Source: Heptranchias perlo
Lineage: Eukaryota
DNA length: 64,000 nucleotides
Assembly (NCBI RefSeq): GCF_035084215.1
Contig: NC_090340.1
Span: 2,790,001-2,854,000 of the forward strand
Direction: 5' to 3'
How positions within the stretch are numbered: the first letter of the stretch is position 1; each line of letters starts with the position of its first letter. The position numbers and the translations under genes were made by a program. Of the stretch, positions 3,713 to 37,765 are shown in pieces. The notes under the pieces are model-generated. The model was not told where the DNA came from. It saw nothing but the letters and a program-made list of their open reading frames with translations, and did no database searches.

Positions 3713-4560
3713 CGCAGCTCCGCTCGGCTCGGCTCCTCTCAGCGCTCTGAAATCCCGCCTTTTATCGGACCCTCTCTCCGCTCGGCTCGGCTCCTCTCAG
3801 CTGTTCTCAGCGCTCTGAAATCCCGCCTTTTATCGGACGCTCCCTCCGCTCGGCTCGGCTCCTCTCAACGCTCTGAAATCCCGCCTTTTATCGGACGCTC
3901 CCTCAGCTCCGCTCCTCTCAGCTGTTCTCAGCGCTCTGAAATCCCGCCTTTTATCGGACGCTCCCTCCGCTCGGCTCGGCTCCTCTCAGCGCTCTGAAAT
4001 CCCGCCTTTTATCGGACGCTCCCTCCGCTCGGCTCGGCTCCTCTCAGCTGTTCTCAGCGCTCTGAAATCCCGCCTTTTATCGGACGCTCCCTCCGCTCGG
4101 CTCGGCTCCTCTCAGCTGTTCTCAGCGCTCTGAAATCCCGCCTTTTATCGGACGCTCCCTCCGCTGGGCTCGGCTCCTCTCAGCTGTTCTCAGCGCTCTG
4201 AAATCCCGCCTTTTATCGGACGCTCCCTCCGCTCGGCTCGGCTCCTCTCAGCGCTCTGAAATCCCGCCTTTTATCGGACGCTCCCTCCGCTCGGCTCGGC
4301 TCCTCTCAGCTGTTCTCAGCGCTCTGAAATCCCGCCTTTTATCGGACGCTCCCTCCGCTCGGCTCGGCTCCTCTCAGCGCTCTGAAATCCCGCCTTTTAT
4401 CGGACGCTCCCTCCGCTCGGCTCGGCTCCTCTCAGCTGCACTCAGCGCTCTGAAATCCCGCCTTTTATCGGACGCTCCCTCCGCTCCGCTCGGCTCCTCT
4501 CAACGCTCTGAAATCCCGCCTTTTATCGGACGCTCCCTCCGCTCGGCTCGGCTCCTCTCA
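3713..4560 (-). repeat. Tandem array of 13 near-identical 58/68-bp GC-rich monomers at the LINE 5' end
   Basis: TCTGAAATCCCGCC recurs at 3746, 3814, 3872, 3935, 3993, 4061, 4129, 4197, 4255, 4323, 4381, 4449 and 4507. Long units carry an extra 10 bp (typically CTGTTCTCAG); one unit is 63 bp. Confidence 0.97.
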
Positions 4561-23891: not shown

Positions 23892-24000
23892 GGGGTAATT
23901 TTAACTTTTATCACAGAGTTACAAACGGACGATAAGGATTGGTCGCCTGTTTTACAACGCACACGAATTTCCTTTTCATTGAAGTTAATTGACTATAAAC
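23892..24000. mobile_element. MITE-like element, left arm
   Basis: Begins GGGGTAATTTTAACTTTT, the family terminus. Confidence 0.55.
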
Positions 24001-24039
24001 CGATGTTAGTATCACTACAATCATTAAACTTGTTCTTCT

Positions 24040-24245
24040 CATTTTCAGCACATTACTGCTCTGACTATTTATTCCGTCTCTCTGGTGCGTTTTTACTACC
24101 ACCTCTTTCTCTTTGTTCTGATGCTATTTAAATGTTGCTCGTTTTGTCCAATTCTGAAGACGGTTTACACCCGAAACGTTAACTCATTTGTTTTCTCCTC
24201 AGATGCTGAAGGATATGCTGAGAAGTTTCTGTTTTTTTTTTCCTG
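24040..24245 (+). mobile_element. Penelope-like terminal-repeat remnant with a degenerate hammerhead-type motif
   Basis: TCTGAAGA-CGGTTTACACCC-GAAACGTTAACTC...CTCAGATGCTG...TGCTGAG. Confidence 0.55.
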
Positions 24246-24664
24246 AGGATTGTGTCCACAACACTGCAGAGATAGGCCGTGGAAATGCCACTGTGGACTG
24301 CCTATGCAATAATTCTTCATCTCATATTATCGACAATTTGTATATGTTGAACAATGCTATCAACAAGCAAAGAAGCTAACTCCAGCTTTCTATTTCCAGA
24401 AGGATATTTTCTACCGCGTTCACCTGGCACACAGGGTCCCGCCGTGGCCTGGAGTTTGACACTTGCTACTAACGTTGTGACGAACTTCAAACCGACATTG
24501 AGCGCTCAGCTCCACGAACACGTCACACTTGTGAAAATTAATTCATTCATTGGCTCTGACATTGTAAGTGTTTGTCATCACCTCGCAGGTTATCACCGGA
24601 CCTCTTTCGAAACTATCGGAGCTTTGTGCTTCCTCAAGCAAGCGACACATTTCCGTTGTTAAAC

Positions 24665-24719
24665 ATGTTTATAGGCGATGCACTTCAGTTCATATGGGTC
24701 CTGGGGATTACGTGCACAG
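24665..24719 (+). CDS. Exon 1: signal peptide MFIGDALQFIWVLGITCT
   Basis: Hydrophobic leader, donor ACAG|GTATTT, 118-bp intron to the V exon. Confidence 0.8.
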
Positions 24720-27700
24720 GTATTTTTTATATTTTTTTTCTATCCCATCCTCTCCGCGCTCTTTCTCAGTCCATAGTTTAACTCGTGCATTCATGTTTCG
24801 CATCTTATTTATAATTATGGTTTGTGTTTTCTGACAGTTACTATTGACACTCAGTTCCCAGTCGACCAAGCTCCTGAAACCATGACCGCGCTGGTAGGTT
24901 CAAACATCACCTTCTATTGCACATACCCCATTTTCCAAGATAACTCAGATGTCAATGTTTACTGGTGGAAACTTGGCGAAAGCAACTTTCTGCAAACTGC
25001 CTCCGAAAGCAGGAATAGATTTCTCCTTTTTAAACAAGGGGGAGCCTCCTTTCATCTTCTGAATATCAGTGCGCGGGACTCTGGGGTCTATTATTGCGGA
25101 GTGAGAATCCTGAGAGGCAGGATTGTAAATGGAACGGGTTCGACGATCAAAGTCTCCGGTAAGTGACACCGTGGACGACAAAGTAACCTCAAATGTCAGA
25201 TATTTCAAAATAAATATTAGTGCTGGATATTTTGTCAAAGATACTGGGACAATGTTCAACTTGCCGCCCATCTGCGTAACTGTAACTTTGGGCGATGGTG
25301 TAAAACGGGCGATATTGAATTAGCCGCCCATTATAAACAACACGTTATTTTCCTAACCATTGATGCCAGTGGAAGAGAAAATCTGGCGTGGTGTATATAG
25401 GTCGGCCAATTTCTAAATCTTAACATAAATAGCTAAAATTACTTCGCGTTGTCGATCTGCCGCCTGTTATAGGAACCGCCTCACGTTTCAATACCCGCTG
25501 GCTGATACTGAAAGCCAATGTTACGCCCGCGGCAAGTTGATAATGTACACCTTTATTTTAAAATAAACATATACATGCCTATGTTGTAAAAGACACACAC
25601 AGTGGAATGTTTTACAAACGCTGAGCGTGAACTGGCTAATATCCGGAGCAGTCACTCGTTGCTTTACATGCTGAAAATTCTTCCTTTTTCTTTTACCGAA
25701 ACCATCACTGATTGCGTTTAATATTCTTTATGGAAACGTACAGAAGGGACATTTTTATTTCACACATCTGGGAACAAGTACACTGCAATTAATTCAAAAT
25801 TCTTCAAGTTCCGAAATGGTCTGACAAAATTATTTTGTACGTCCTAAGTGCAGATCAAAGTTGTGCCTAATGTAACCTGCGCCGCCGCAGTTCTGCTTTA
25901 ACATTTTACCTCCAGTCGTCAAACTGTAGCCCGAAAATACAAAATTTAGATGATGTTAATTTATTTGTTGATGTTTTCTCAAACATTGTCAGTTCACACG
26001 GTCAAATAAACAGACTTTATTTGACCCCACACAGGAAACAAAATATTCTCCAATATAACATGTGGTGGACACCTACATAAAACTATTCACTCTCTCGAAA
26101 CATACAAGTGCTCCAAGTTGTAATAGCTGATGCTTCCCTCCCTCCATCACCAATCTGCAGCCGATAGCCTAAACCAGGTGACATTGGAGAATGATGGATC
26201 AGCTCCGGCGATGACGAACGCAAACAAACACCTGGCGCCGAAATAATATATCACCCAGAAACACATTTCCATCCAACCCTTCATTGGATTGGACTTAATA
26301 GCACCTGCAGGCAGATGTTGGATTTTCAGGCATAGATAGCTCCCCACACAGGAGTGACTCTTGTCAGTTTCCAAGCTGAAAGAAAAGGGTCCGTTATGTG
26401 AAGAAGGCACTAATTGTGTTTGTACATTGACCCAAAACGGTCCAAAAAACCTTATGACTTTTGGGAATGGCCTGCGATCACTCTTTGCCTTCTTACATTG
26501 CAACGCATTTGCTGTTTTATAGTGAAGATATTTTATACATTAAAATGCAACATATTTGTTATTTTATAATGCAACATGTTCACTTTTATATACTGTAACA
26601 TAATTGCTATTTTATTCCTCAATATTTTGGCTATTTTATAAGGCAACATAATTGCTATTAAATACTGTAACATATTAGTTATTTTATACCGCAACATATA
26701 GGATATTTGACAATGCAGCATATTCGCTATTTTATATTGTAACATATTTGCGATTATATATTGAAATATATTAGCTATTTTATAATGCAGCATATTTTCT
26801 AGCTTAAACTGCAACATGTTGGCTACTTTATACTACAACATATTTGCTATTATGTACTGAAACAAATTTGCAATTTTATACTGCAACATGTTGGCTATTT
26901 TATAATGGAGCATATTTGCAATTTCATACTGCAGCATATTTGTTATTTTATAATGCAGCCCCTTTGCAATTTTATACTGTATCATATTTGATATTTGATA
27001 TGATTCACATATTTATTATTTTAATCTGTAGCATTTTTTTGCCATTTTAGATTGTAAACGTTATTATTTAATACTACAGAATATATAGTATATGAAACAT
27101 GTTGCAACACATTTACAATTTTATACTAAAACATATATACTATTTTATACTGCGACAGATTGAAGATTTATTTTATATATATTGTAACAGACGGATAATG
27201 TAACATGTTTTTAACGTGGACGATATTTATTAGTTCATAATTTCACACATTTATAATTTATATTGTAACAGATTTGGTATTTCTTCAGATACATGTGAAA
27301 TGTGATTCGTACTTGAAAATTCAACAAAATGTTAATTTTGAAAGTTATAACGGATTTATAACAACTGGATTGTTGACGATACCATCAAATTATAGTAATA
27401 CAATATACAAGGGGAGTTTAAACAATCATTTATGTCAATTAATATTGATATCAATTCATGTTATCCAGTTGAAGTTCCTCGAACTTAAACGAGACTGCCC
27501 TCCCAATGAGCAGAAATGAGACACATTCTAAATATTCTTTTTTGAAACCGTTCCACAGTTCCGCCAACGCCGCTGAGGATTTTCTCCAAAGTATCAGAAT
27601 CGAACTCCTCTGCTCTGAATCTCGTGTGTAAAACGGACAACTTTTACCCGGATGCTCTCTCCCTCACTTGGTATAAAGATGGGATTGAGATTGTGATCGG

Positions 27701-28480
27701 CATAGAGACGACTACAACATTGAACATCGACGGACTGTATGAAGTTTCCAGCTTGCTGAAGGAGACACAGTCTATCCGAAGCGGGGCTGTTTATACTTGT
27801 CAAGTATCCCACCTCACGCTGCCTGCTCCAGCTAATGTGACCTTCATTATCCCGATTTCTAACATAGGTAAGGTGCCGGCATCCTTACAAACACAATGAA
27901 CTGGTGTTAAAATAATTTTTCGTTTACGCTGCAGGCTTAGCGTCGGCTGGAATAATTTAGCTTAACACCGGAACAATATCTATCGCGTAAATCTAGAGTC
28001 AGGAGCCCACTACGGAGAAACAGAGTGAGAGAAGGCAATCTCACAGTTCTGGTCCAAGCCCATGTCAGCTTGATTGTTCGGAGTTCTAACGCGGCTAAAA
28101 TACCAACGTTGTACCAAATAACATAATTTACGGATGGCCTGTCATATTTACTTTCTCTGAAGGACAAATTTAACGCACTATTAAAATAACTTCACTGACA
28201 CTTTTAGCTTAAGAACTTCACGGTGCTGTAAAAAAATACATAATCTCTCTACTGAATGGTTAGCATGAGTTTAAGGAATACAATGGGGTAGATTTTCTAT
28301 TTGGCGCCCGATCGTAAAAGTCGCCCGTTATATAAACAACACAATATTCATTTCTGTTTTTGTATATTCCTAGTTTCCCTTGACAATTCATTTATGGTTG
28401 TTCGGTTTGTATTGAGCGTATTGGTCGTTTTGATGCTGACGATAATCATTGTGGATCATTTTTGGATCAACTCCTTTTAA
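24665..28480 (+). CDS. Spliced IgSF type I membrane receptor, leader-V(J)-C1-TM, 263 aa: join(24665..24719,24838..25158,27559..27867,28374..28480)
   Basis: All three introns are GT-AG and phase 1. The joined frame is open (792 nt including TAA) and each exon is one domain. Exact orthology (SIRP, NKp30, B7H6 or antigen-receptor-like) is not determined. Confidence 0.88.
24838..25158 (+). CDS. Exon 2: Ig V-set domain with a germline-joined J-like G strand
   Basis: Acceptor TTTTCTGACAG; GSNITFYC...VYWW...RF...DSGVYYC...NGTGSTIKVS; donor CCG|GTAAGT. Confidence 0.93.
25282..25445. mobile_element. MITE-like element in intron 2
   Basis: AACTTTGGGCGATGGTGTAAAACGGGCGATAT...CTAAAATTAC. Confidence 0.7.
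26061..26317. promoter_or_regulatory. Candidate intronic enhancer (RUNX site and four E-boxes)
   Basis: TGTGGT 26061, CAGGTG 26175, CACCTG 26229, CACCTG 26302, CAGATG 26312. Motif evidence only. Confidence 0.3.
26508..27160. repeat. Degenerate AT-rich 24-bp minisatellite (consensus about TGCTATTTTATACTGCAACATATT)
   Basis: 24-nt periodicity, echoed in the 8-aa repeats (ANMLQYKI) of spurious ORF 26533-26817. Confidence 0.9.
27559..27867 (+). CDS. Exon 3: Ig C1-set domain
   Basis: Acceptor TTCCACAG; LVCKTDNFYPDALSLTWYKDG...GLYEVSSLL...YTCQVSHLTL; donor ATAG|GTAAGG. Confidence 0.93.
28374..28480 (+). CDS. Exon 4: short stalk, transmembrane helix with Arg, short tail and stop
   Basis: Acceptor TATTCCTAG; VSLDNSFMVVRFVLSVLVVLMLTIIIVDHFWINSF*; donor AAAG|GTAAGA follows at 28483. 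Confidence 0.82.
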
Positions 28481-28575
28481 AGGTAAGACATCCATTTATC
28501 ACTGTTGGGCGATAGGTTAACGACAGGGCACAAAGCGAACGTCAACAGAAAAGAATGAAAAACAATTCCACGATC

Positions 28576-28700
28576 ATTTTAACTTTGCGGGATAGTATAA
28601 AATGGACGATATGGAATTGGCCGCTTATTATATTTCTGGTGCATTACTGGCAGATCCGATATCGCCCATTTTACACATTGCCAAAAGTTAAAATTACCCC
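28576..28700. mobile_element. Palindromic MITE-like element
   Basis: ATTTTAACTTTG...TAAAATGGACGATATGG pairs with CCGATATCGCCCATTTTA...CAAAAGTTAAAATTACCCC. Confidence 0.78.
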
Positions 28701-28994
28701 CGAGGTGTCTGGTGCAGAGAAAAACACCGGCATGTGGTTGATGGGCGAATGGCCCGTTTTAATACAGGGGTCTAGTTTGGACTTTTGGACGGGCGACTGA
28801 AAGACCGTACGTGGGCTGGCACATTGCCAGTCACCAAAAGGACTTCCCGATGCAGGTCACCGGATTGAGGCCTCTCATTATCGCGCTACTCCAGCAAGGC
28901 AAGGAGGGCGGAGGTTTGGAGACGGCAGCAGTCCTAATCATTTTTGTGAGGCCCAGAGCAGCACCTCTGATCCTCCGGGAACCACTGAAATAAT

Positions 28995-31038
28995 TCCACA
29001 CTTACGGGCAAAACTGCAATTGAGCAATGGGCGGCCTTTAAAGAGGAGATGGTTCGGCTGCAGTCTCGGCACATTCCCAGGAGGCAGAAAGGTAGGGCAA
29101 CTAAAGCCCTGGTTGACAAAAGAGATAGTGAGTAAGATGAAACATATGTCAGTTTGATAGCACGAGTGAGAAACAGACCGAATATAGAAAGTTCAGAGGG
29201 GAAGTGGAAAAGTAAATAAGAGGGGCAAAGAGAGAACATGAGAATTGACAGACGGCCAACATAAAAGCGAATCCAGAAATCTTCAACAGGCATGTAAACA
29301 GTAAAGGGTAGTAAGAGGAGGGGTGAGGCTGATAAGGGACCATAAAGAAAATCTACTCAAGTAGCAGAGGGGTGGCCGAGGTACTAAATTAATACTTTGC
29401 ATCTGTCTTTACCAAGGAAGTAGATGCTGCCAGAGTCTCAGTAAAGGAAGATATAGTTGAGATACTGGATTGGCTAAAAATTGGAAAAGAGGTACTAGAA
29501 AGGCTAGCGGTACTTAAAGTAGATAAGGCACCTGGTCCAGATGGGATGCATCCTACATTGCTGAGGGAAGTAAGGGTGGGAATTGCGGAGGTACTGGCCA
29601 CAAACTTCCAAACATCCATAGATACGGGGATGGTGCCAGAGGACTGGAGAATTGAAATGTTACACCCTTGTTCAAAAAAGATGTAAGGACAAACCCAGCA
29701 ACTATAGGTCAGTTACTTTCACCTCAGTGGTGGGGAAACTTTTAGAAACAATAATCCAGGACAGAATTAACAGTCCCTTGGATAGGGGTGGATTGATTAG
29801 GGAAAGCCAGCACAGATTTGTTAAAGGCAAATTGTGCTTAACTAACCTGATGGGGTGTTTTGATGAGGTAACAGAGAAGGTAGATGAGGACAATGCATTT
29901 GATGTGGTGTTTATGCGCTTCCAAAAGACGTAAAAATAAAGCGCCGCATGGTAGGCTTATCATCAAGATTGCGGCCTATGGAATAAAGGGGCAGTAACAA
30001 CATGGATACAGAACTGGCTAAGTTACAGGAAACAGAGCGTAGTGGTTAACGGTTGTTTTTTGGATTGGAGGGAAGTGTCCAGTGGTGATCCCCAGGGGTC
30101 GGTGCTAGGACTACTGATTTTCTTGATATATATTAATTTGCAGATGACACAAAACTTGGAAGGGCAGGAAACAGTGAGCAGGATAGTGATAGTCTTCAAG
30201 AGGGCATAGACAGGCTGGTGGCATGGGCGGACACGTGGCAAATAAAATTTAATGCAGAAAAATGCGAAGTGATATATTTCGGTGGGAAGAATGAGGAGAG
30301 GCAATATAAACTAGAGGGCACAATTCTAAAAGGGGTACATGAACAGAGAGATCTGGGGGTATATGTGCACAAATCGTTGAAGGTGGTAGAGCAGGTTGAG
30401 AAAGCGTTTATAAAAGCATATGGGTTCCTAGGCTTTCTAAATAGAGACATAGAGTACCAAGGTATGGAAGTCATGATGAACCTTTATAAAACACTGGTTT
30501 GGCCACAACTGGATATTGTGTCCAGTTCTGGGCACCACACTTTAGGAAAAGTTTGAAGGCCTTAGTGAGGGTGCAGAAGACATTTACTGGGATAATTCCA
30601 AGGATGAGGGACTTTAGTTACATGGATAGACTGGAGAAGCTGTTCTCCTTGGAACAGAGAAGTTTGCGAGGAAGTTTGATAGAAGTATTCAAAATCATGA
30701 GGGGGCTAGACAGAGTAGATAGAGAAAAAATGTTCCCATTGGCGGATGGGTCAAGAACCAAAGGACATAGACTTAAGGTGATTGGCAAAACAACCAAAGT
30801 TGCCATGGGGAGAAACTTTTTTACACTGCAAGTAGCTAGGGTCTGGAATGTACTGTCCGAGGGTATGATGGAGGCAGATTCAATTATGGCTATCACAGGA
30901 GAACTGGATAAGTACGTAAAAGGAAAAAAAATGCAGGGCTACGGGATAGGGCGGGGGAGTGGGACTAGCTGGATTGCTCTTGCATAGAGCTAGCTACAAC
31001 TCGATGGGCCGAAGGGCCTCCTTTCGTGCTGTACCCTT
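28995..31038 (+). mobile_element. Degraded CR1, same subfamily as 8200-10695
   Basis: Collinear similarity to the 8.4-10.7 kb copy, with internal deletions. Confidence 0.9.
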
Positions 31039-32149
31039 TCTATGATTTTACGATTCTACCTTGGCTGGACCTCTTTGGCTCCATCGACTGTGGAACTGCT
31101 GGGAGTGTGCTCAGCGCAGGATTCGACCAGTTCCGACCTGGCATTCATGGTCCCAGGACCGCTACTTGCTAGTTAAAACGGGCGCCCTGTGGTAGGCTCC
31201 AATCTAAATGACAGGGACGTCTATGTTGTGTTAACTGCGCGGTAAAGCTACCGACCCCTTTAAGAGATGTTTTATCTGACCATTAACGCCATTTGATAGA
31301 AGTGAAACTTGACGCCTAAGATTCTATGATTAGCTCAGATCATTATAGTTTTTAATTTACATACGGTTACTAACAATTATACATTTATTGAATAAAACAT
31401 TAACTCTACTTTTTTGTGATTAAGGTATATTAGAATGTATTAACGCCTTGGACTGAATTTTAGAAAGAGGATATTAACTTGTTTTACTCAGTATTACACA
31501 CTTCTTAACAGATAGACACTTTCCTAAGTTACATATTTCAAAATGGGACCTTCTCCTAGTATCGATTGTTATTTTTAAATATCGACAGAGCAAACTCTAT
31601 TTTTACAATAGCAGGATGTTTATGATCTTTTCCAAAACTAACATTCAGAAAGTTTGGTCTAATTTAATATATGGTCTGTTTACTGTTGCAAACGTTTAGC
31701 AGTTACGAAACCGAACCTTTCACACGCATTAGTAGAGCAACTATAATGCACCCATTCAAAAAAAAATCCATTTAGAGTCCGAGATTTTCCTTCAAATAAT
31801 AGCAAACAATTTTATGAGGATTTTCAAATCTTGTGCTGTTTCATAATTTCCAGACTTATCAGAGAGAAAACTGATCCAAAAAGCGCAGATACTGGATATA
31901 CCGTGAAGATGGTTAAGGAACATAGGAATTATTAGTCTAAAAATACCAAGATCCTAGTTCTTCTTCTACGATCTTGGGATCATGCAACTATAATGGAGTT
32001 GCTGGCTAATCTTAGCAATCACTCTCTATCAATTAGTCCACAACAGACCCAGGCACAATGCGAGGAGAACCCAGGTGGTGGAGACCTCTAGGAACCGTCT
32101 TTGCAATCTTATACTGTCCTGAAAAAAATCCTAGTTCACTGGACTACGT

Positions 32150-32450
32150 AGAATCATAGAGCAGAATCATAGAAAGTTACGGCACAGAAGGAGGTCATTC
32201 GGCCAATCATGTCCGTGCCGGCTGAAAAAGAGCTATCCAGCTTAACCCCAGTTTACAGCACTTGGTCCGTAGCCCTGTAGGTTACGGCACTTCAAGTGCT
32301 CATCCAAGTACTTTTTAAATGAGTTGAGGGTTTCTGCCTCTACCACCCTTTCAGACAGTGAGTTCCAGACCCCCACCACCCTCTGGGTGAAAAAAAACCC
32401 CTCAGCTCCCCTCTAATCCTTCTACCAATTACTTTAAATCTATGCCCCCT
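32150..32450 (-). mobile_element. CR1 3' fragment
   Basis: AGAATCATAGA tail; GAGTTCCAGACCCCCACCACCCTCTGGGTG (TQRVVGVWNS). Confidence 0.8.
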
Positions 32451-33379
32451 ATACATACCTTAATTTTCGAAATAGTCTTTAAACCCTAAATTCATATATA
32501 TTTCTACAACGCATGATACAACTCAATAAATGAAGCCCCATAGAGTAATGTATGTATTACCTAAATTGGTCATTCGTGAGTGGTTTAATTTTAGTTTAAC
32601 ATCTAAACTGTATTGATAGCCATTTAAGTCAATTCTGTTTCCTGACTGAATGATCCATTGCCAAAAGCTCTGAATTAATTAAGATTGCTTTATATAAAGT
32701 CTCAAATAATGGTAACAGAATAATATGATCAAACAAGCTGGAAATAAATGAATGGTAAAAATGGATCTATTGTGATTCCACCATATAGCTACAGCAGCAG
32801 GTTATTGGTGGTGTAAAGTGACGACCTGTGAAAGTAATCAAGAAATATAAGGATTATAAATAATACAACGTGTACTGATCTGAATTTCGTTTTACAGATT
32901 CATTATGTGTTGAGAGGCGAATGGCCTTGTGCTGGTGGAGCTTTACCGGCTGGATCAAAACAACAAATTCTTAAGGAGATGTGTCCAGTGAAGCTGAGAA
33001 TCAAATCAGCATAAATAACCTGAATGGAAACAAGCAGTGTGATTGATTACAGATATATCCGACCTATGGTAGCTACTGGAGTTATACAAAAAGGCAACTG
33101 AAACTTAAAACTGAGATAACTTTGCGCAATAATTACACATTGTAAGGTGGTGAAATCCAATTAATTCTGTAGTTAGGTCTGCTCTATGAAAACAGATCTG
33201 CTATGGAAACGAAATTGCAGCAATGCTTTTTATTGAGAATGTGTGCTTAATTGCGCCTTTCCATTGAGACTGTGCGTGATATCTGCAATCCCAATTAGTT
33301 AGAAATGTTTTTGCATCTTCATAACTTGCATCTGTATAATCAAGATGAAATACTGACAACGATTTCTTCTCTGCCTTTC

Positions 33380-35060
33380 CTAGAATCATCGAATCATAGA
33401 GTGATACAACACAGAATTAGGCCTTTCGGTCTATCGGGCCTGTGCCGGCTCTTTAAAAGAGCTATCCAATTAGTCCCACTCCGCTGCACTTTCCCCATAA
33501 CCCTGAACATTTTTCCCCTTCAAGTATTTATCCAATTTTCTTTTGAAAGTTATTGTTGAATCTGCTTCCAGCACCCTTTCAGGCAGTGCATTCCAGATCA
33601 TAACAACTCGCTGCATATTTTTCCCTCATGTTGCCTCTGGTTCTTCTGCCAATTACCTTAAATTTGTGACCTCTGCTTACCGACCCTTCTGCCATTGGAA
33701 ACAGTTTCTCCTTATTTACTCTATAAAAACCATTCATGATTTTCAACACTTGTATCAAATCTACCCTTAATTATTAACAAGAAAATCCCCAGTTTCTCTA
33801 GTCTCTCCACGTGACTGAAGTATTTCATCCCTGGTACCATTCTAGTAAATCTCCTATGCACCCTCTCTAAAGCCCTGACATCGTTCCTGAAGTGTGGTGT
33901 CCAGAATTGGCCACCATACTACAGCTGGGGCCGAACCAGTGTTTTACAAATGTTTAGCATAACTTCCTTGCTTTTTTATTTGGTGCCTCTATTTATACAG
34001 CCAAGGATCCCTTATACCTTTTCAGCAGCCTTCTCAACTTGTCCTGTCACCTTCAAAGACTTGTTTACGTTCACCACCAGGTCTCTCTCCTCCTGCACCC
34101 CATTTTAAATCGTATCATTTAGTTCACTTCACACTTCTCTGCGTTAAAATTCATCTGCCTTGTGTCTGCCCATTTTAGCAGTCTGTCTATGACCTCCTGA
34201 AGTGTGTTACCATCCTGCAAATCCTGAAATTATGCCCTGCATAACCAAATCCAGATCATTAATATATATCAACAAGAGCAGTGTTCCCAACACCGACTCC
34301 CAGGCACACCCCTGTATACTTCCCTCCAGTCTGAAAAACAGCCATTCACCACTATCCTCTTCCTTCTGTCTCTTCGCAAATTTCGTATCCACGCAGCCAT
34401 TGCTTTAATCCAATGGACTTCAATTTTGCTAACAAGACTGTTATATGGATTTCAACAAACGCCTTTTGAAAGTCCATATACACATCAACTGCACTACCCT
34501 CATCAACCCGTTCGATTACTTCATCACATAACTCAAACAAGTTAGTCAATGACGACTTGCCTTCAACAATCCGTGCTGGCTTTCATTTGTTAACCCATTT
34601 TTTTCCAAGTGCGAATTAATTTTGTTCCGGATTATTGTCTCCGAAAGTTTCCCCATCACCAACGTTAGGATGACTGGCCTTTAATTGCCAGGTTTATGCC
34701 TCGCCCCTTTTTTGAACGAAAGTGTAACATTTGTCTTCCTTCAGTCCTCTGACTCAACTGCCATATCTAAAGAGGGTTGGATGATTGTGGCATGAGCCTC
34801 CGCAATTTCCACCCTCACTTCCCTCAGCAACATAGGATGCATCCTATCCAGAGAGGGTGACTTTTCTACTTTGAGTGCTGCCAACCTTTTAAGTACCTCC
34901 TCTATCTATTTTTACACTGCCCAATTTTTCTACCTCCCCTTTACTGTAAGATTGGCAGCATCCTCTTCTTTGGTGAAGACACTTTGCAAAGTACTCATTT
35001 AGTACCTCAGCTATGCCCTCTGCCTCCACAAGAAGATCTCCTTCTTGGTCCCTATTTTTT
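33380..35060 (-). mobile_element. Degraded CR1 RT and 3' fragment
   Basis: AEVLNEYFA and VDVYMDFQKAF on the minus strand; tail at 33380. Confidence 0.85.
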
Positions 35061-35704
35061 CTCCCTTTGAGCAAGAAGGTCTTAATCGGCTTCATTATAA
35101 TTTGGGCTAAGATCTCATAACACTTAGCACACAGAGGAAATCTTCCCCAATGTGTTTTAGTAACACATGAGCGTTTTCAGTCAGAAGATCTTCGATCCAT
35201 CTAACCCACCTACCCATGTTTCTAACGACCCTGAATCCCATTTGCTGAAAAGAACGTTTCTAGTTCATTCTTGAAACCATTTATGTTTCTTGTTCCACCA
35301 CCCATGCCATCAATTTGTTCCACATACTTACTAGTTTTGGTTAAAAAAGTTACTCCTGCACTTCCTATTTTTTTCTGTTGTCCTGAATTTCTAAATGTGG
35401 CCTTTTGATTTTATGTTCTGTACATGGTAGAAAAACTTACTCGGATCCAATTTGTCCAAACCTTTCACAATTTTAAACACTTCTATCATATTCCTCTCTC
35501 AGTCTTCATGTTTCAAGTGAGCAGAGACCAGGGTAGTAAAACTGAAGTTTTCTGTTCAATTCAATTTAATTCAAGGAAATACTATTTCAAGTGTGATTAG
35601 GACTGCTAATTTATACAACGATTTGTCACTGACATCTAAGTAATACCCAATATGTCTTTCACTCGGATGCGTGCGAGATACAATGCACCACGCCATAGAG
35701 GATG

Positions 35705-35827
35705 AGTTTATTTTTTGGCGATGTTGTAAAACGGAATTCAATGGAAAAAAAAATCCGGAGAGGCAAAGCAATTGGCCGATCTGATATCACAAGTTTTACA
35801 CCATGGCGAAAATATAAAATTGCCTCT
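35705..35827. mobile_element. MITE-like element, internally deleted
   Basis: TTTTGGCGATGTTGTAAAAC pairs with GTTTTACACCATGGCGAAAA...AAATTGCCTC. Confidence 0.65.
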
Positions 35828-36420
35828 GGTATACGTGAATTTGCTGTTGGTACCAGCACAACAAGGACAAAAGCTAATCGGCAGCCCATTTTACACTCTG
35901 CCTAATTTTTCTTCTATTTGAAGTGAAAGGTTGATTGATGGTAACTTGTTTAGCCTTGCGACATATAATGAGATCAGTAGCCTTAGAGGGCTATTAATCT
36001 CGACAATTCAGACGGCGCGTCTTGAAGGGGGCTACCGCTGGGCACTTCAGTATGCAAATCGGTGTCCTAATATCATGAGTGACATTCTAAGTTGGAAGTA
36101 GCCCAACCATGAAGTCAACGGAGAAAAAGCGGGAAGAGTGGAAATGCGGCGGAGTGTAAAACGGGCGGAGTGTAAATGGGCTGTTGATTTACCTTTTGTG
36201 CTACACTCAAGACGAATTTATGCCTCATATTGTTTGAAGGCAGGCAACTGGTCACAGTGACAAGTGCGATCGTGTGTTAATACTATTTCAAATCATATAT
36301 TGCCACGCCAACTTGTGCAGTGTGTAGATAATGCATATACTCAAACAATTATTCGCTCATTTCTGCGCTGGAAAGTGTCTTCTTAAATATTTGGGAAATT
36401 ACTGAAAACTTGGCAGCTTG

Positions 36421-36580
36421 GGGGTAGTTTTAACTTTCACGGATAATGTAAAACGGGCGGAATCGGATGGGCCGCCCGTTACACACTCCGCCTGATTTTC
36501 TTTTCCATTGACTTAAACGGGACAGGTTTACAAATGGCGGCCCATCGAATACCGCCTATTTACAATAACTCAGAAAGTAC
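36421..36580. mobile_element. MITE-like element
   Basis: GGGGTAGTTTTAACTTTC...TGTAAAACGGGCGGAATCGGATGGGCCGCC pairs with GGCGGCCCATCGAATACCGCC. Confidence 0.75.
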
Positions 36581-37765
36581 AAAAAAAAACCTTTTCATCT
36601 CAAAGATAAGGTCTAATTGTTGGCGATTTGGCCTAATTATTACAATACGAATTTGTAAAGTTGAATCCATGTCTATGGTTGCAATCTTGTTACATCACCA
36701 GCTTCCGTTTACTGCAGTAGACGACAAGCCTTACTGAGCTATCCAAAAATTTCCCAATAATGTAAGCAATTGCTTTGTCTAATAGGACAGAGGTGTTGAT
36801 GCTTTTTTTTCCATTAATGCTTGAACAGATCACAATGTTCTAATTTTGTTTGAGGAGTATTGATCATATAATTTTCTCAAAATATAAACGTGAATTGAAA
36901 TTTGTCAAGGACTCTTTAATCACATTCCAGCTGAAACCGGAAGATCGAAATACGCTGTATTCCGATTAATGGACCACAACTCTAAAAAAGAATACTTTTT
37001 AAGAGAGTCGCAGCACAGTTCGCTCGCAATGTACGTTCTACTCTCAATCGAGAAAGTTGAGAAATCCATTGCTAAAATATCAACTCTCATGATAAAACAG
37101 TCGGAGACTGGATAGAACATTTTGATCTTCAAAGAATTAGAGTAGGTTCTTGGTTTTGGTTTTAATTTGAATTATACGGTCCGTTATAGATTGCAAGTTG
37201 CAGCATTCACGTTTATAGAAGTCTTGACTGCAGTCAATTTGTTGATTTTGCTAATACTATTAATTTGTTACTTTTGAAAAAATATTTATATATTTGGAAT
37301 ATATTCATGAAACTAAAGCTGCGCAAATTGTAATAGTTTTATTGCAATGAGTCCTGGGGTCGCTGTTTGTTTCAGGATGTTTTTCTGATGTTTCTAACGC
37401 TTGTATCTCACTCTGAAACCAAACGGAACGTTGCTGTATATTGTCACCCTTATACGCGCAGCCCAATTAATGGAGTTCGAACCAACAGTTTGGAATGAGG
37501 TGTGCGGAATATTTAAACCTACAAGCAAGGGAAGCAACAGCATGCACTTATAGCACTTTGAGGTCGGACACTCAGCTGGGAGCTGAACATTGCTGAAGGA
37601 ATGGGGTTGGGGGAGAGTCACGATTCAACAGATAGCTATTTATGAAGTTTTAAAGGTAGTGTAAAAACAGATGCAACTGATTTTGCAAAAGACCCTACCT
37701 AATCGCTTCTGACTGGAGGAAAGAGGCAGGGAACAGGTAACAAGACAGGATCAGAGAAACAGAGC

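What the first reader, a model, noticed from the sequence alone, without database searches (positions are those of the whole stretch)
28374..28484. Arg in the TM helix and a near-absent tail: predicted activating receptor with a TCR-alpha-like exon layout
Seen: the TM segment MVVRFVLSVLVVLMLTIIIV has a lone Arg near its outer end and an 8-residue tail with no Tyr. The stop sits 2 nt before a strong donor (TAAAG|GTAAGA), and the stalk has no Cys. Established: an outer-TM Arg mediates pairing with ITAM adaptors FcR-gamma or CD3-zeta in NKp46, NKp30, LILRA and TCR-alpha; TCR-alpha/delta also end translation in the TM exon and have a separate 3'UTR exon. Inference: a monomeric or non-covalently paired activating receptor.
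Basis: partly seen in the sequence, partly recalled or inferred. Interest (0 to 1): 0.7.

Follow-up and report, generated by a model that had tools for sequence, protein, structure and literature searches.

The report
Shark activating paired immune receptor anchor
This exon is the membrane anchor of an intact shark gene for an antibody-like surface receptor; its arginine recurs in about 20 sister genes while near-identical sisters carry inhibitory tails, so it is likely the 'on' half of an on/off immune receptor pair that would signal through a borrowed FcR-gamma/CD3-zeta-type chain, and its likeness to T-cell receptor alpha is likely superficial.

Summary
Observation confirmed. Exon 28374-28482 ends an intact 263-aa leader-VJ-C1-TM gene, with a lone Arg, an 8-aa Tyr-free tail, a stop 2 nt before AAG|GTAAGA and no stalk Cys. 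The gene is one of about 100 on contig C18. Of 100 loci read, 23 have this TM type (Arg 20/23, Asp/Asn at +17 23/23, His at +18 21/23), 60 a mostly uncharged type and 17 none found. ITIM-tail exons follow 28/56 non-Arg TMs and 0/27 Arg TMs (10-kb stretches only). The ectodomain is 85-90% identical to ITIM-bearing sisters, and the homology breaks about 350 nt before the TM exon. Ten TMs of this type occur in seven other shark species (Arg 9/10). 'Activating paired receptor' is well supported by inference; adaptor binding and expression of this gene are not shown. The TCR-alpha likeness is weak: no Lys, no stalk Cys, and the stop is present in only 7/22 paralogues, toggling by one base. The TM is closer to the FcR-gamma-docking type of Fc-alpha-RI/NKp46/LILRA, without that type's Asn. 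The scan has noted this family before on other DNA; nine paper searches found no description of it.

The parts
24665..24719 (+). Leader exon (18 codons + 1 nt; split leader, phase-1 donor GTATTT)
   Evidence: resembles the leader part of P0002 and P0001
24838..25158 (+). Single-exon VJ domain (V-set), J-like Gly-x-Gly with Asn (N-G-T sequon) in place of the J Phe/Trp; no convincing recombination signal
   Evidence: Pfam V-set E 4e-9; model pLDDT 89.6; signal scan gave only 4-mismatch hits, all outside this exon
27559..27867 (+). C1-set domain exon, no extra Cys
   Evidence: Pfam C1-set E 9.6e-14
27551..28026 (+). Tract of homology with inhibitory sisters L069/L038/L053 (about 82% DNA identity) that ends about 350 nt before the TM exon
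   Evidence: blastn
28374..28482 (+). Stalk-TM-tail exon of the Arg ('class A') type; the finding
28403..28405 (+). Arg codon (CGG), outer part of the TM
   Evidence: Arg in 20 of 23 class A exons
28454..28459 (+). Asp-His at +17/+18 from the Arg, inner membrane edge; no basic residue on the inner side
28478..28488 (+). Stop TAA, 2 nt, and donor GTAAGA
   Evidence: same donor in 22 of 23 class A exons, stop before it in 7 of 22
26484..27157 (.). AT-rich tandem repeat in the V-C1 intron
   Evidence: self-alignment
29007..31057 (+). Interspersed repeat copy (LINE-like; label recalled) in the intron after the TM exon
   Evidence: self-alignment; very high contig depth
32898..33380 (+). Candidate last exon (3' UTR here; 3' end not determined), likely a decayed short coding tail exon
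   Evidence: ties for top score of 2237 AG sites against the last 8 residues of P0002; 4th of 496 acceptors by a family-trained matrix, two of the three better ones inside repeats; weak homologue after the TM exon of L028 (E 1.2). Not confirmed by RNA

Best explanation
The exon is the membrane anchor of an intact leader-VJ-C1-TM gene in a shark family of about 100 genes, and it likely makes this gene the activating member of a paired receptor set that is predicted to signal by docking its outer-leaflet Arg on the Asp pair of an FcR-gamma/CD3-zeta-type dimer. Shown: intact frame; two TM classes in the family; Arg TMs without ITIM exons in the stretches read; ITIM sisters with an 85-90% identical ectodomain; homology ending in the C1-TM intron; activating- and inhibitory-type genes interleaved on the ectodomain tree. 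Inferred: the receptor is a single chain without a disulfide partner; it has no signalling motif of its own and borrows ITAMs from the adaptor; Asp/His at +17/+18 (His is five helical turns from the Arg, same face) help seat the adaptor at the inner membrane edge; gene conversion or recombination keeps its ligand-binding part like that of the inhibitory twin, so it would fire on pathogen mimics or altered ligands of the inhibitory form. The stop beside the donor is a dispensable-tail state. The protein is the same whether or not the donor is used, and a stop 2 nt from a last junction should escape nonsense-mediated decay (50-nt rule, recalled).
For: Intact 263-aa frame with canonical GT-AG junctions. 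102 V and 148 C1 matches in G000, nearly all strong ones on C18 in two clusters. Of 100 fetched loci: 23 class A, 60 class B, 17 without a TM found. Arg at the aligned column in 27 of 83 TMs (20 A, 7 B); ITIM exons after 0 of 27 Arg TMs and 28 of 56 others (Fisher p 9e-7, inflated by near-copies). His at +18 in 24 of 27 Arg TMs against 3 of 56 others. Among 56 annotated proteins from other species, 10 class A TMs in 7 shark species: Arg 9/10, acidic +17 8/10, His +18 9/10. V 94/105 and C1 87/102 identical to ITIM gene L069 = P0001. Ectodomain tree of 68 rows needs 14 A/B changes, 13 forced by well-supported branches, shuffled mean 16. This gene groups with same-genome ITIM genes (97/95) rather than the horn-shark Arg gene P0002 (AU p 0.007), although P0002 has the closest TM among those compared (18/28, next 17/28). 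A zeta/gamma-family TM exon with the Asp is at C11:52.32 Mb. The ITIM twin is spliced in run X1 (three GT-AG joints). Passages read: an Arg near the top of the TM couples CD89, NKp30, NKp46 and TCR-alpha to zeta/gamma dimers, and placement of the basic residue can suffice in a featureless TM (PMC13107469); FcR-gamma-docking TMs have acidic residue(s) at the C-end (PMC6557307); Xenopus receptors with such TMs need or gain from FcR-gamma for surface expression (PMC2413239).
Against: No binding or signalling experiment exists for any family member that I found. The Asn of the NxxR motif is absent here (Met) and present in 4 of 23 class A exons. The class A TM profile matched no immune-receptor chain in the PDB at E<=10. 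Three class A exons lack the Arg (2 Gln, 1 Trp), as does one from another shark. The Mustelus protein P0004 has an Arg at this position together with an ITIM-type tail, so Arg does not always mean tail-less. The Arg lies 3-5 residues into the hydrophobic stretch and could reach the headgroups. Absence of ITIM exons was judged on 2.5-8.4 kb after class A TMs, and half of the non-Arg genes also showed none in their stretches. The AU grouping was chosen after seeing the tree. Whether the adaptor exon is FCER1G or CD247 was not resolved.
Confidence: 0.75

Rival explanations
1. Non-signalling decoy or ligand-type molecule: the Arg only marks the outer membrane edge, and the tail-less protein competes with the inhibitory twin for ligand, or is itself a ligand of the B7-H6 kind.
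For: Arg at position 3-5 of the best hydropathy windows; some class A exons have Gln or Trp instead; databases auto-name several relatives 'NCR3 ligand 1-like'; V-C1-TM is also a B7-type layout (recalled).
Against: Arg is kept in 20 of 23 paralogues and 9 of 10 foreign class A TMs while flanking columns vary. The 16 uncharged residues after it are short for a bilayer. A second Arg type within class B also shows His at +18 in 6 of 7 and no ITIM exon in the stretch. The family has ITIM members, which marks receptors.
Confidence: 0.12
2. A TCR-alpha/delta-like chain or a living relic of its non-rearranging precursor, pairing non-covalently with a second VJ-C1 chain and CD3, with the exon layout inherited from a common ancestor.
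For: Split leader, one-exon VJ, true C1 domain, outer Arg, stop beside the TM-exon donor. Non-rearranging VJ-C1 genes are proposed antigen-receptor precursors (PMC10751288, PMC12227049 passages).
Against: No central Lys, which TCR-alpha uses for CD3-delta/epsilon (PMC13107469); no stalk Cys; J Phe/Trp replaced by a glycosylation sequon (17 of 29 aligned V domains, read); stop position varies among paralogues; the V fold is no closer to TCR than to vNAR, NKp30 or PD-1; the TM profile did not hit TCR chains in the PDB.
Confidence: 0.05
3. Activating, but through another partner (DAP10/DAP12-type or an unknown shark adaptor) that reads the Arg plus the conserved Asp-His.
For: The motif differs from NxxR; His at +18 tracks the Arg closely (24 of 27); NKG2D-DAP10 also uses an Arg.
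Against: By the passages, DAP10/DAP12-type assembly uses a centrally placed basic residue; here it is near the outer end, the zeta/gamma position. DAP10/DAP12 genes were not searched for.
Confidence: 0.05
4. A silent or decaying copy in a birth-and-death cluster; the stop is an early lesion.
For: Many family loci are broken (V and C1 both open in 64 of 100 stretches, some stretches lacking the V).
Against: All four exons are open with canonical junctions. The same stop occurs in 6 other genes, and NCBI models P0007, P0008, P0205 and P0208 end at that place. A counterpart with this V type and TM exists in horn shark (P0002).
Confidence: 0.03

Closest known systems
FcR-gamma-coupled 'NxxR'-TM receptors (Fc-alpha-RI/CD89, NKp46, GPVI, OSCAR, LILRA, PIR-A; Xenopus XFL TM1)
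   Same: Arg at the outer end of the TM, acidic residue at the C-end of the TM, short tail, paired with ITIM relatives that have uncharged TMs (PMC2413239, PMC6557307, PMC4536121 passages).
   Different: No Asn three residues before the Arg in this gene (4 of 23 paralogues have it), no DYT motif, a conserved His at +18, and a VJ-C1 ectodomain instead of C2-type domains. No Tweety-family gene was found on C18.
SIRP-alpha/beta paired receptors
   Same: J-like V plus C1 ectodomain, ITIM versus charged-TM forms (recalled; SIRP listed among joined-VJ genes in PMC11599192); many relatives are auto-named SIRP-like.
   Different: One C1 instead of two, outer Arg instead of central Lys with DAP12 (recalled), about 100 copies; SEP-domain genes (NSFL1C-type flank, recalled) lie on C22 and C3, not C18.
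NKp30 (NCR3)
   Same: One-exon VJ, Arg in the upper TM, zeta/gamma use; among the top fold matches (TM-score 0.76, rank 14).
   Different: NKp30 has no C1 domain (recalled). The fold match is not better than vNAR, PD-1 or TCR V. MHC class I matches lie on unplaced scaffolds, none on C18.
TCR-alpha/delta chains
   Same: Split leader, V-J-C1-TM order, outer TM Arg, stop near the end of the TM exon (TCR exon layout recalled).
   Different: No rearrangement signals, no TM Lys, no stalk Cys, variable stop position, ITIM-bearing twins.
Non-rearranging VJ-C1 genes: UrIg, UrIg2, PRARP
   Same: Germline-joined VJ with C1 and split leader.
   Different: UrIg2 has 9-11 C domains and forms disulfide-linked dimers, expressed in gill and liver. 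This family has one C1, about 100 copies and opposite signalling classes. The PRARP and Ohta 2019 papers could not be read.
Siglec-5/14 and Siglec-11/16 pairs (recalled; also named in earlier scan notes)
   Same: Ectodomain kept alike between activating and inhibitory twins by conversion, break point before the TM exon.
   Different: Unrelated domain layout; ligand here unknown.

Membership tests
Paired activating/inhibitory Ig-type receptors (functional class) | Close relatives with near-identical ectodomain and ITIM tail | tested here: met
   L069/P0001, L038, L053: V 83-90%, C1 85-88% identical, ITIM/ITSM-type exons
Paired activating/inhibitory Ig-type receptors (functional class) | Basic TM residue and short tail without Tyr motif | tested here: met
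Paired activating/inhibitory Ig-type receptors (functional class) | Signals through an ITAM adaptor in leukocytes | not testable with these tools
   needs co-expression and signalling assays
NxxR-TM FcR-gamma-coupled receptors | Arg at the N-terminal part of the TM | tested here: met
NxxR-TM FcR-gamma-coupled receptors | Asn three residues before the Arg | tested here: not met
   Met here; Asn in L048, L064, L083, L086 = 4 of 23
NxxR-TM FcR-gamma-coupled receptors | Acidic residue at the C-end of the TM | tested here: met
   Asp at +17 here and in 17 of 23 paralogues, Asn in 6; feature stated in PMC6557307
Leukocyte receptor complex genes | C2-type LRC domains and TTYH1-linked locus | tested here: not met
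   V-set + C1-set domains; Tweety matches on C25, C26, C686, C817, none on C18
TCR-alpha/delta | V(D)J rearrangement with recombination signals | tested here: not met
   J joined in the V exon; only 4-mismatch signal-like hits in 24601-28600
TCR-alpha/delta | TM Lys in addition to Arg; stalk Cys | tested here: not met
   Arg is the only basic residue in the last 34; no Cys after C1
TCR-alpha/delta | Fixed stop in the TM exon with separate 3' UTR exon | tested here: inconclusive
   True for this gene by sequence, last exon only a candidate; 7 of 22 paralogues share it
SIRP | V-C1-C1 ectodomain (recalled) | tested here: not met
   One C1 exon; TM exon follows 506 nt later
SIRP | Conserved synteny with NSFL1C (recalled) | tested here: not met
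   SEP-domain matches on C22 and C3 only; one marker only
SIRP | Orthology by phylogeny with tetrapod SIRPs; CD47 binding | not tested
   no tetrapod SIRP sequences were retrieved
NKp30/NCR3 | Single V domain without C1; MHC linkage | tested here: not met
   C1 present; MHC class I matches on unplaced scaffolds, so linkage itself is open
PRARP / tetrapod VJC1 genes | Orthology and synteny | not tested
   papers not held; all 58 hits of the full-length profile search were cartilaginous fish

The most novel reading that the evidence does not exclude
Sharks keep, in about 100 copies, the un-rearranged VJ-C1 plus Arg-TM architecture proposed for the precursor of TCR-alpha/delta, already wired to the zeta/gamma adaptor and used as their main NK- or myeloid-cell paired receptor system. 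The Arg with Asp-His at +17/+18 would be the ancestral form of the adaptor-docking helix from which TCR-alpha, NKp30-like and NxxR anchors descend (turtle multi-V receptors show the same Arg and acidic spacing).
Probability: 0.1. Interest if true: 0.8.

Novelty: new variant of a known kind. Interest (0 to 1): 0.42.

Why it matters
Receptors that let shark NK or myeloid cells weigh 'on' against 'off' signals are poorly known. A family of about 100 VJ-C1 genes, in which activating and inhibitory twins keep swapping their ligand-binding exons, is a strong candidate, and public databases label its members at random (IgL-, tapasin-, SIRP-, B7-H6-, MHC-like). This gene gives a clean test pair: an intact Arg member, a spliced ITIM twin and a candidate adaptor in the same genome. 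The Arg/Asp-His helix also offers a natural variant for mapping what zeta/gamma docking needs. The principle itself is well known from mammals, birds, frogs and bony fish, which limits the surprise.

Tried and rejected
Complex prediction (TM peptide with two copies of the adaptor TM): no answer, score 0.20 under the 0.34 mark, controls not folded; not used as evidence either way.

RNA: no RNA holder was listed for this gene. Three same-sample runs laid on 24000-34000 covered mainly repeats, with no depth over the V exon and no listed piece or joint at the gene's exons, in cut tables. This says nothing on expression.

DNA search of the genome with the TM exon found only itself, so paralogues were taken by fetching 10-kb stretches. 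Two of 102 C1 places (C18:15.63 Mb, 19.02 Mb) were fetched late and not analysed. PDB search with the TM profile gave only chance serpin peptides. PDB and representative-protein searches with the V profile were swamped by multi-Ig proteins. Fold search did not separate V-set families. ITAM exons of the adaptor were not found (short split exons are easily missed). Masked all-against-all search for a shared last exon among class A genes was dominated by repeats and cut. No AATAAA/ATTAAA was found from 32890 to 37000, so the 3' end is undefined.

Rejected: that the stop is an assembly slip in the T run (the same stop is in 6 other genes); that the gene is a rearranging TCR/Ig locus.

Literature: nine searches gave no paper on this family. 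Subscription papers (Ohta 2019, Fu 2019, Flajnik 2012) and the supplements of PMC3964593 were not seen and may list members.

Full report
1. Observation. The + strand frame at 28376 reads SLDNSFMVVRFVLSVLVVLMLTIIIVDHFWINSF and then stops. The exon runs 28374-28482 between a pyrimidine-rich AG acceptor and the donor GTAAGA; the Arg codon is at 28403, the stop at 28478-28480, two bases before the donor.

2. The gene. Upstream lie a leader exon (24665-24719), a one-exon VJ domain (24838-25158; Pfam V-set, E 4e-9) and a C1-set exon (27559-27867; E 9.6e-14). Joined, they give 263 codons with one stop, canonical junctions, five Cys (one in the leader, two per domain), no Tyr after C1, and the Arg as the only basic residue in the last 34. 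No convincing recombination signal was found. The closest named proteins are from sharks.

3. The family. The V exon has 102 matches and the C1 exon 148 in G000, the strong ones on C18 in two clusters, 2.7-6.0 Mb and 14.5-15.6 Mb, plus one at 19.0 Mb (lower bounds). I fetched 10 kb at 100 of 102 C1 places and classed the TM exons with two profiles seeded from those loci: 23 class A (this type), 60 class B (mostly uncharged, Cys-containing, basic inner flank; a few truncated or decayed), and 17 with none found. In class A the Arg is kept in 20 of 23, Asp or Asn stands 17 residues later in 23 of 23 (17 Asp, 6 Asn), and His follows in 21 of 23. Seven class B exons also have Arg in that column, six of them with His at +18. 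Exons with ITIM/ITSM-type motifs were found after 28 of 56 non-Arg TMs and 0 of 27 Arg TMs (p 9e-7). That figure overstates the case, because near-copies are not independent and the stretches are short.

4. Other species. A profile of 14 full-length members returned 58 proteins, all from sharks, rays and a chimaera. Of 68 family proteins examined, 56 from other species, 10 carry a class A TM, from seven shark species: Arg in 9, an acidic residue at +17 in 8, His at +18 in 9. None of six chimaera proteins was class A, which is no proof of absence. Against the rule, Mustelus P0004 has an Arg in this position and an ITIM-type tail. Turtle multi-V receptors found also come as ITIM forms and as forms with Arg and Glu 17 residues apart. 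Their TMs scored 14.9 and 10.6 bits with the shark profile; the best unrelated of 72 TM-like segments scored 12.4, so this is a lead only.

5. Pairing. The closest ectodomains are ITIM genes: L069 (identical in V and C1 to P0001), L038 and L053, with V 94/105 and C1 87/102 identical to L069. DNA homology covers leader, first intron and V, then C1 and 160 nt of the next intron, and stops at 28026, before the TM exon. On a 68-row V+C1 tree the two classes interleave: 14 changes, 13 forced by well-supported branches, against a shuffled mean of 16 (loci with stops in V or C1, or without V in the stretch, were left out). The horn-shark protein P0002 has the same V type and the closest TM (18/28; next 17/28), yet this gene's ectodomain groups with same-genome ITIM genes. 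Holding it with P0002 is rejected (AU p 0.007; grouping chosen). The simplest reading is an old activating gene whose ectodomain is refreshed from its inhibitory twin; repeated joining of ectodomains to an Arg TM would look the same. The twin L069 is spliced in run X1 at V-C1, TM-tail and tail-tail junctions, at low depth.

6. Adaptor. The genome has one intact zeta/gamma-family TM exon with the Cys and Asp (C11:52.32 Mb) and a second short, stop-ended match on C1. Passages of PMC13107469 state that CD89 binds FcR-gamma through an Arg near the top of its TM and needs both Asp, that NKp30 and NKp46 are assumed to do the same, that TCR-alpha has both this Arg and a central Lys, and that DAP12-type modules use a central Lys. 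PMC6557307 (passages) describes the NxxR TM with acidic residue(s) at its C-end. PMC2413239 (passages) shows FcR-gamma-dependent or FcR-gamma-enhanced surface expression for two Xenopus receptors with it. PMC4536121 (one passage) counts about 50 such exons in Xenopus. The shark TM shares the Arg and the acidic end but mostly not the Asn (4 of 23). It therefore works like this type by inference and is not filed as a member.

7. The TCR-alpha likeness. The donor is conserved in 22 of 23 class A exons, but the stop before it in only 7 of 22. Six read through in phase 2, one in phase 0 and eight in phase 1. Close copies differ at one base of the codon (L086 versus L048/L064; L059 versus L044). The candidate next exon at 32898, read in phase 2, gives R-F-I-M-C-stop and lines up with the last residues of P0002. 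It ties for first among 2237 AG sites, ranks 4th of 496 as an acceptor, and has a weak homologue behind L028. So the 'UTR exon' is probably a decayed tail exon and the layout a by-product of a dispensable tail. Lys, stalk Cys and rearrangement are all missing. The J Phe/Trp position holds an N-G-T/S sequon in 17 of 29 aligned V domains, which argues against antibody-style V-V pairing (inference).

8. Family identity. The V model (pLDDT 89.6) matches vNAR, NKp30, PD-1, PD-L1 and TCR V domains about equally. Marker searches put SEP-domain, Tweety and MHC class I genes on contigs other than C18; unplaced scaffolds leave MHC and LRC linkage partly open. UrIg and UrIg2 differ in domain number and dimerisation (PMC12227049, abstract and passages). 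PMC10751288 and PMC11599192 (passages) name VJ-C1 and joined-VJ genes but not this family in the passages seen; PMC3964593 (passages of main text) had nothing on it; PMC6761025 was not held.

9. Verdict. A real, intact-looking activating-type member of a large shark VJ-C1 paired receptor family (0.75). The mechanism class is known; the family appears undescribed in the papers I could search (nine searches), but this scan has noted it in several other windows of this genome and in other sharks. Interest 0.42.

Noticed in passing
G000:C18 about 3.45-4.05 Mb and 4.25-4.86 Mb; also 14.68-14.80 and 14.98-15.13 Mb: Blocks of genes recur almost identically (L039/L054, L040/L055, L043/L058, L045/L061, L048/L064, L093/L102): very recent segmental duplication or two haplotypes assembled in tandem, so gene counts may be inflated.
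   Followed up: no
L090, L095, L104, L106, L112, L113: A second Arg-TM type within class B, with His at +18 and no intact ITIM exon in the stretch: likely an independent route to an activating form.
   Followed up: partly
L087, L111, L096; P0207: Class A TMs that have lost the Arg (Gln or Trp) but keep Asp-His or Asp-Tyr; NCBI model P0020 continues into a further tail exon.
   Followed up: no
L045, L061, L078, L080: Class B TMs with Lys or Glu in the Arg column.
   Followed up: no
L027 (G000:C18:2857529-2867528, minus strand, just beyond the window): The neighbouring gene faces this one tail to tail, is also class A with the same stop-donor layout, and has counterparts in Carcharodon, Mustelus and Chiloscyllium.
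   Followed up: partly
L069:5467-6904: A spliced contig in X1 includes the first of two duplicated ITIM exons, which NCBI model P0001 skips.
   Followed up: no
P0060, P0085, P0103, P0173, P0181, P0185 (turtles): A turtle family of tandem-VJ receptors, auto-named NCAM2-, pIgR-, titin- or FCRL5-like, with ITIM forms and Arg/Glu-TM forms.
   Followed up: partly
L123 (G000:C1:111764533-111764583, minus): Short stop-ended match to the zeta/gamma TM family; pseudo-exon or chance.
   Followed up: no
window 3715-4560: Long GC-rich tandem repeat; the rest of the window is dense in interspersed repeats and holds no second V or C1 exon of the family.
   Followed up: no
P0010, P0015, P0016; P0190, P0220, P0224, P0227, P0231: Annotated isoforms that skip the C1 exon or the TM exon, suggesting V-only and soluble forms in the family.
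   Followed up: no
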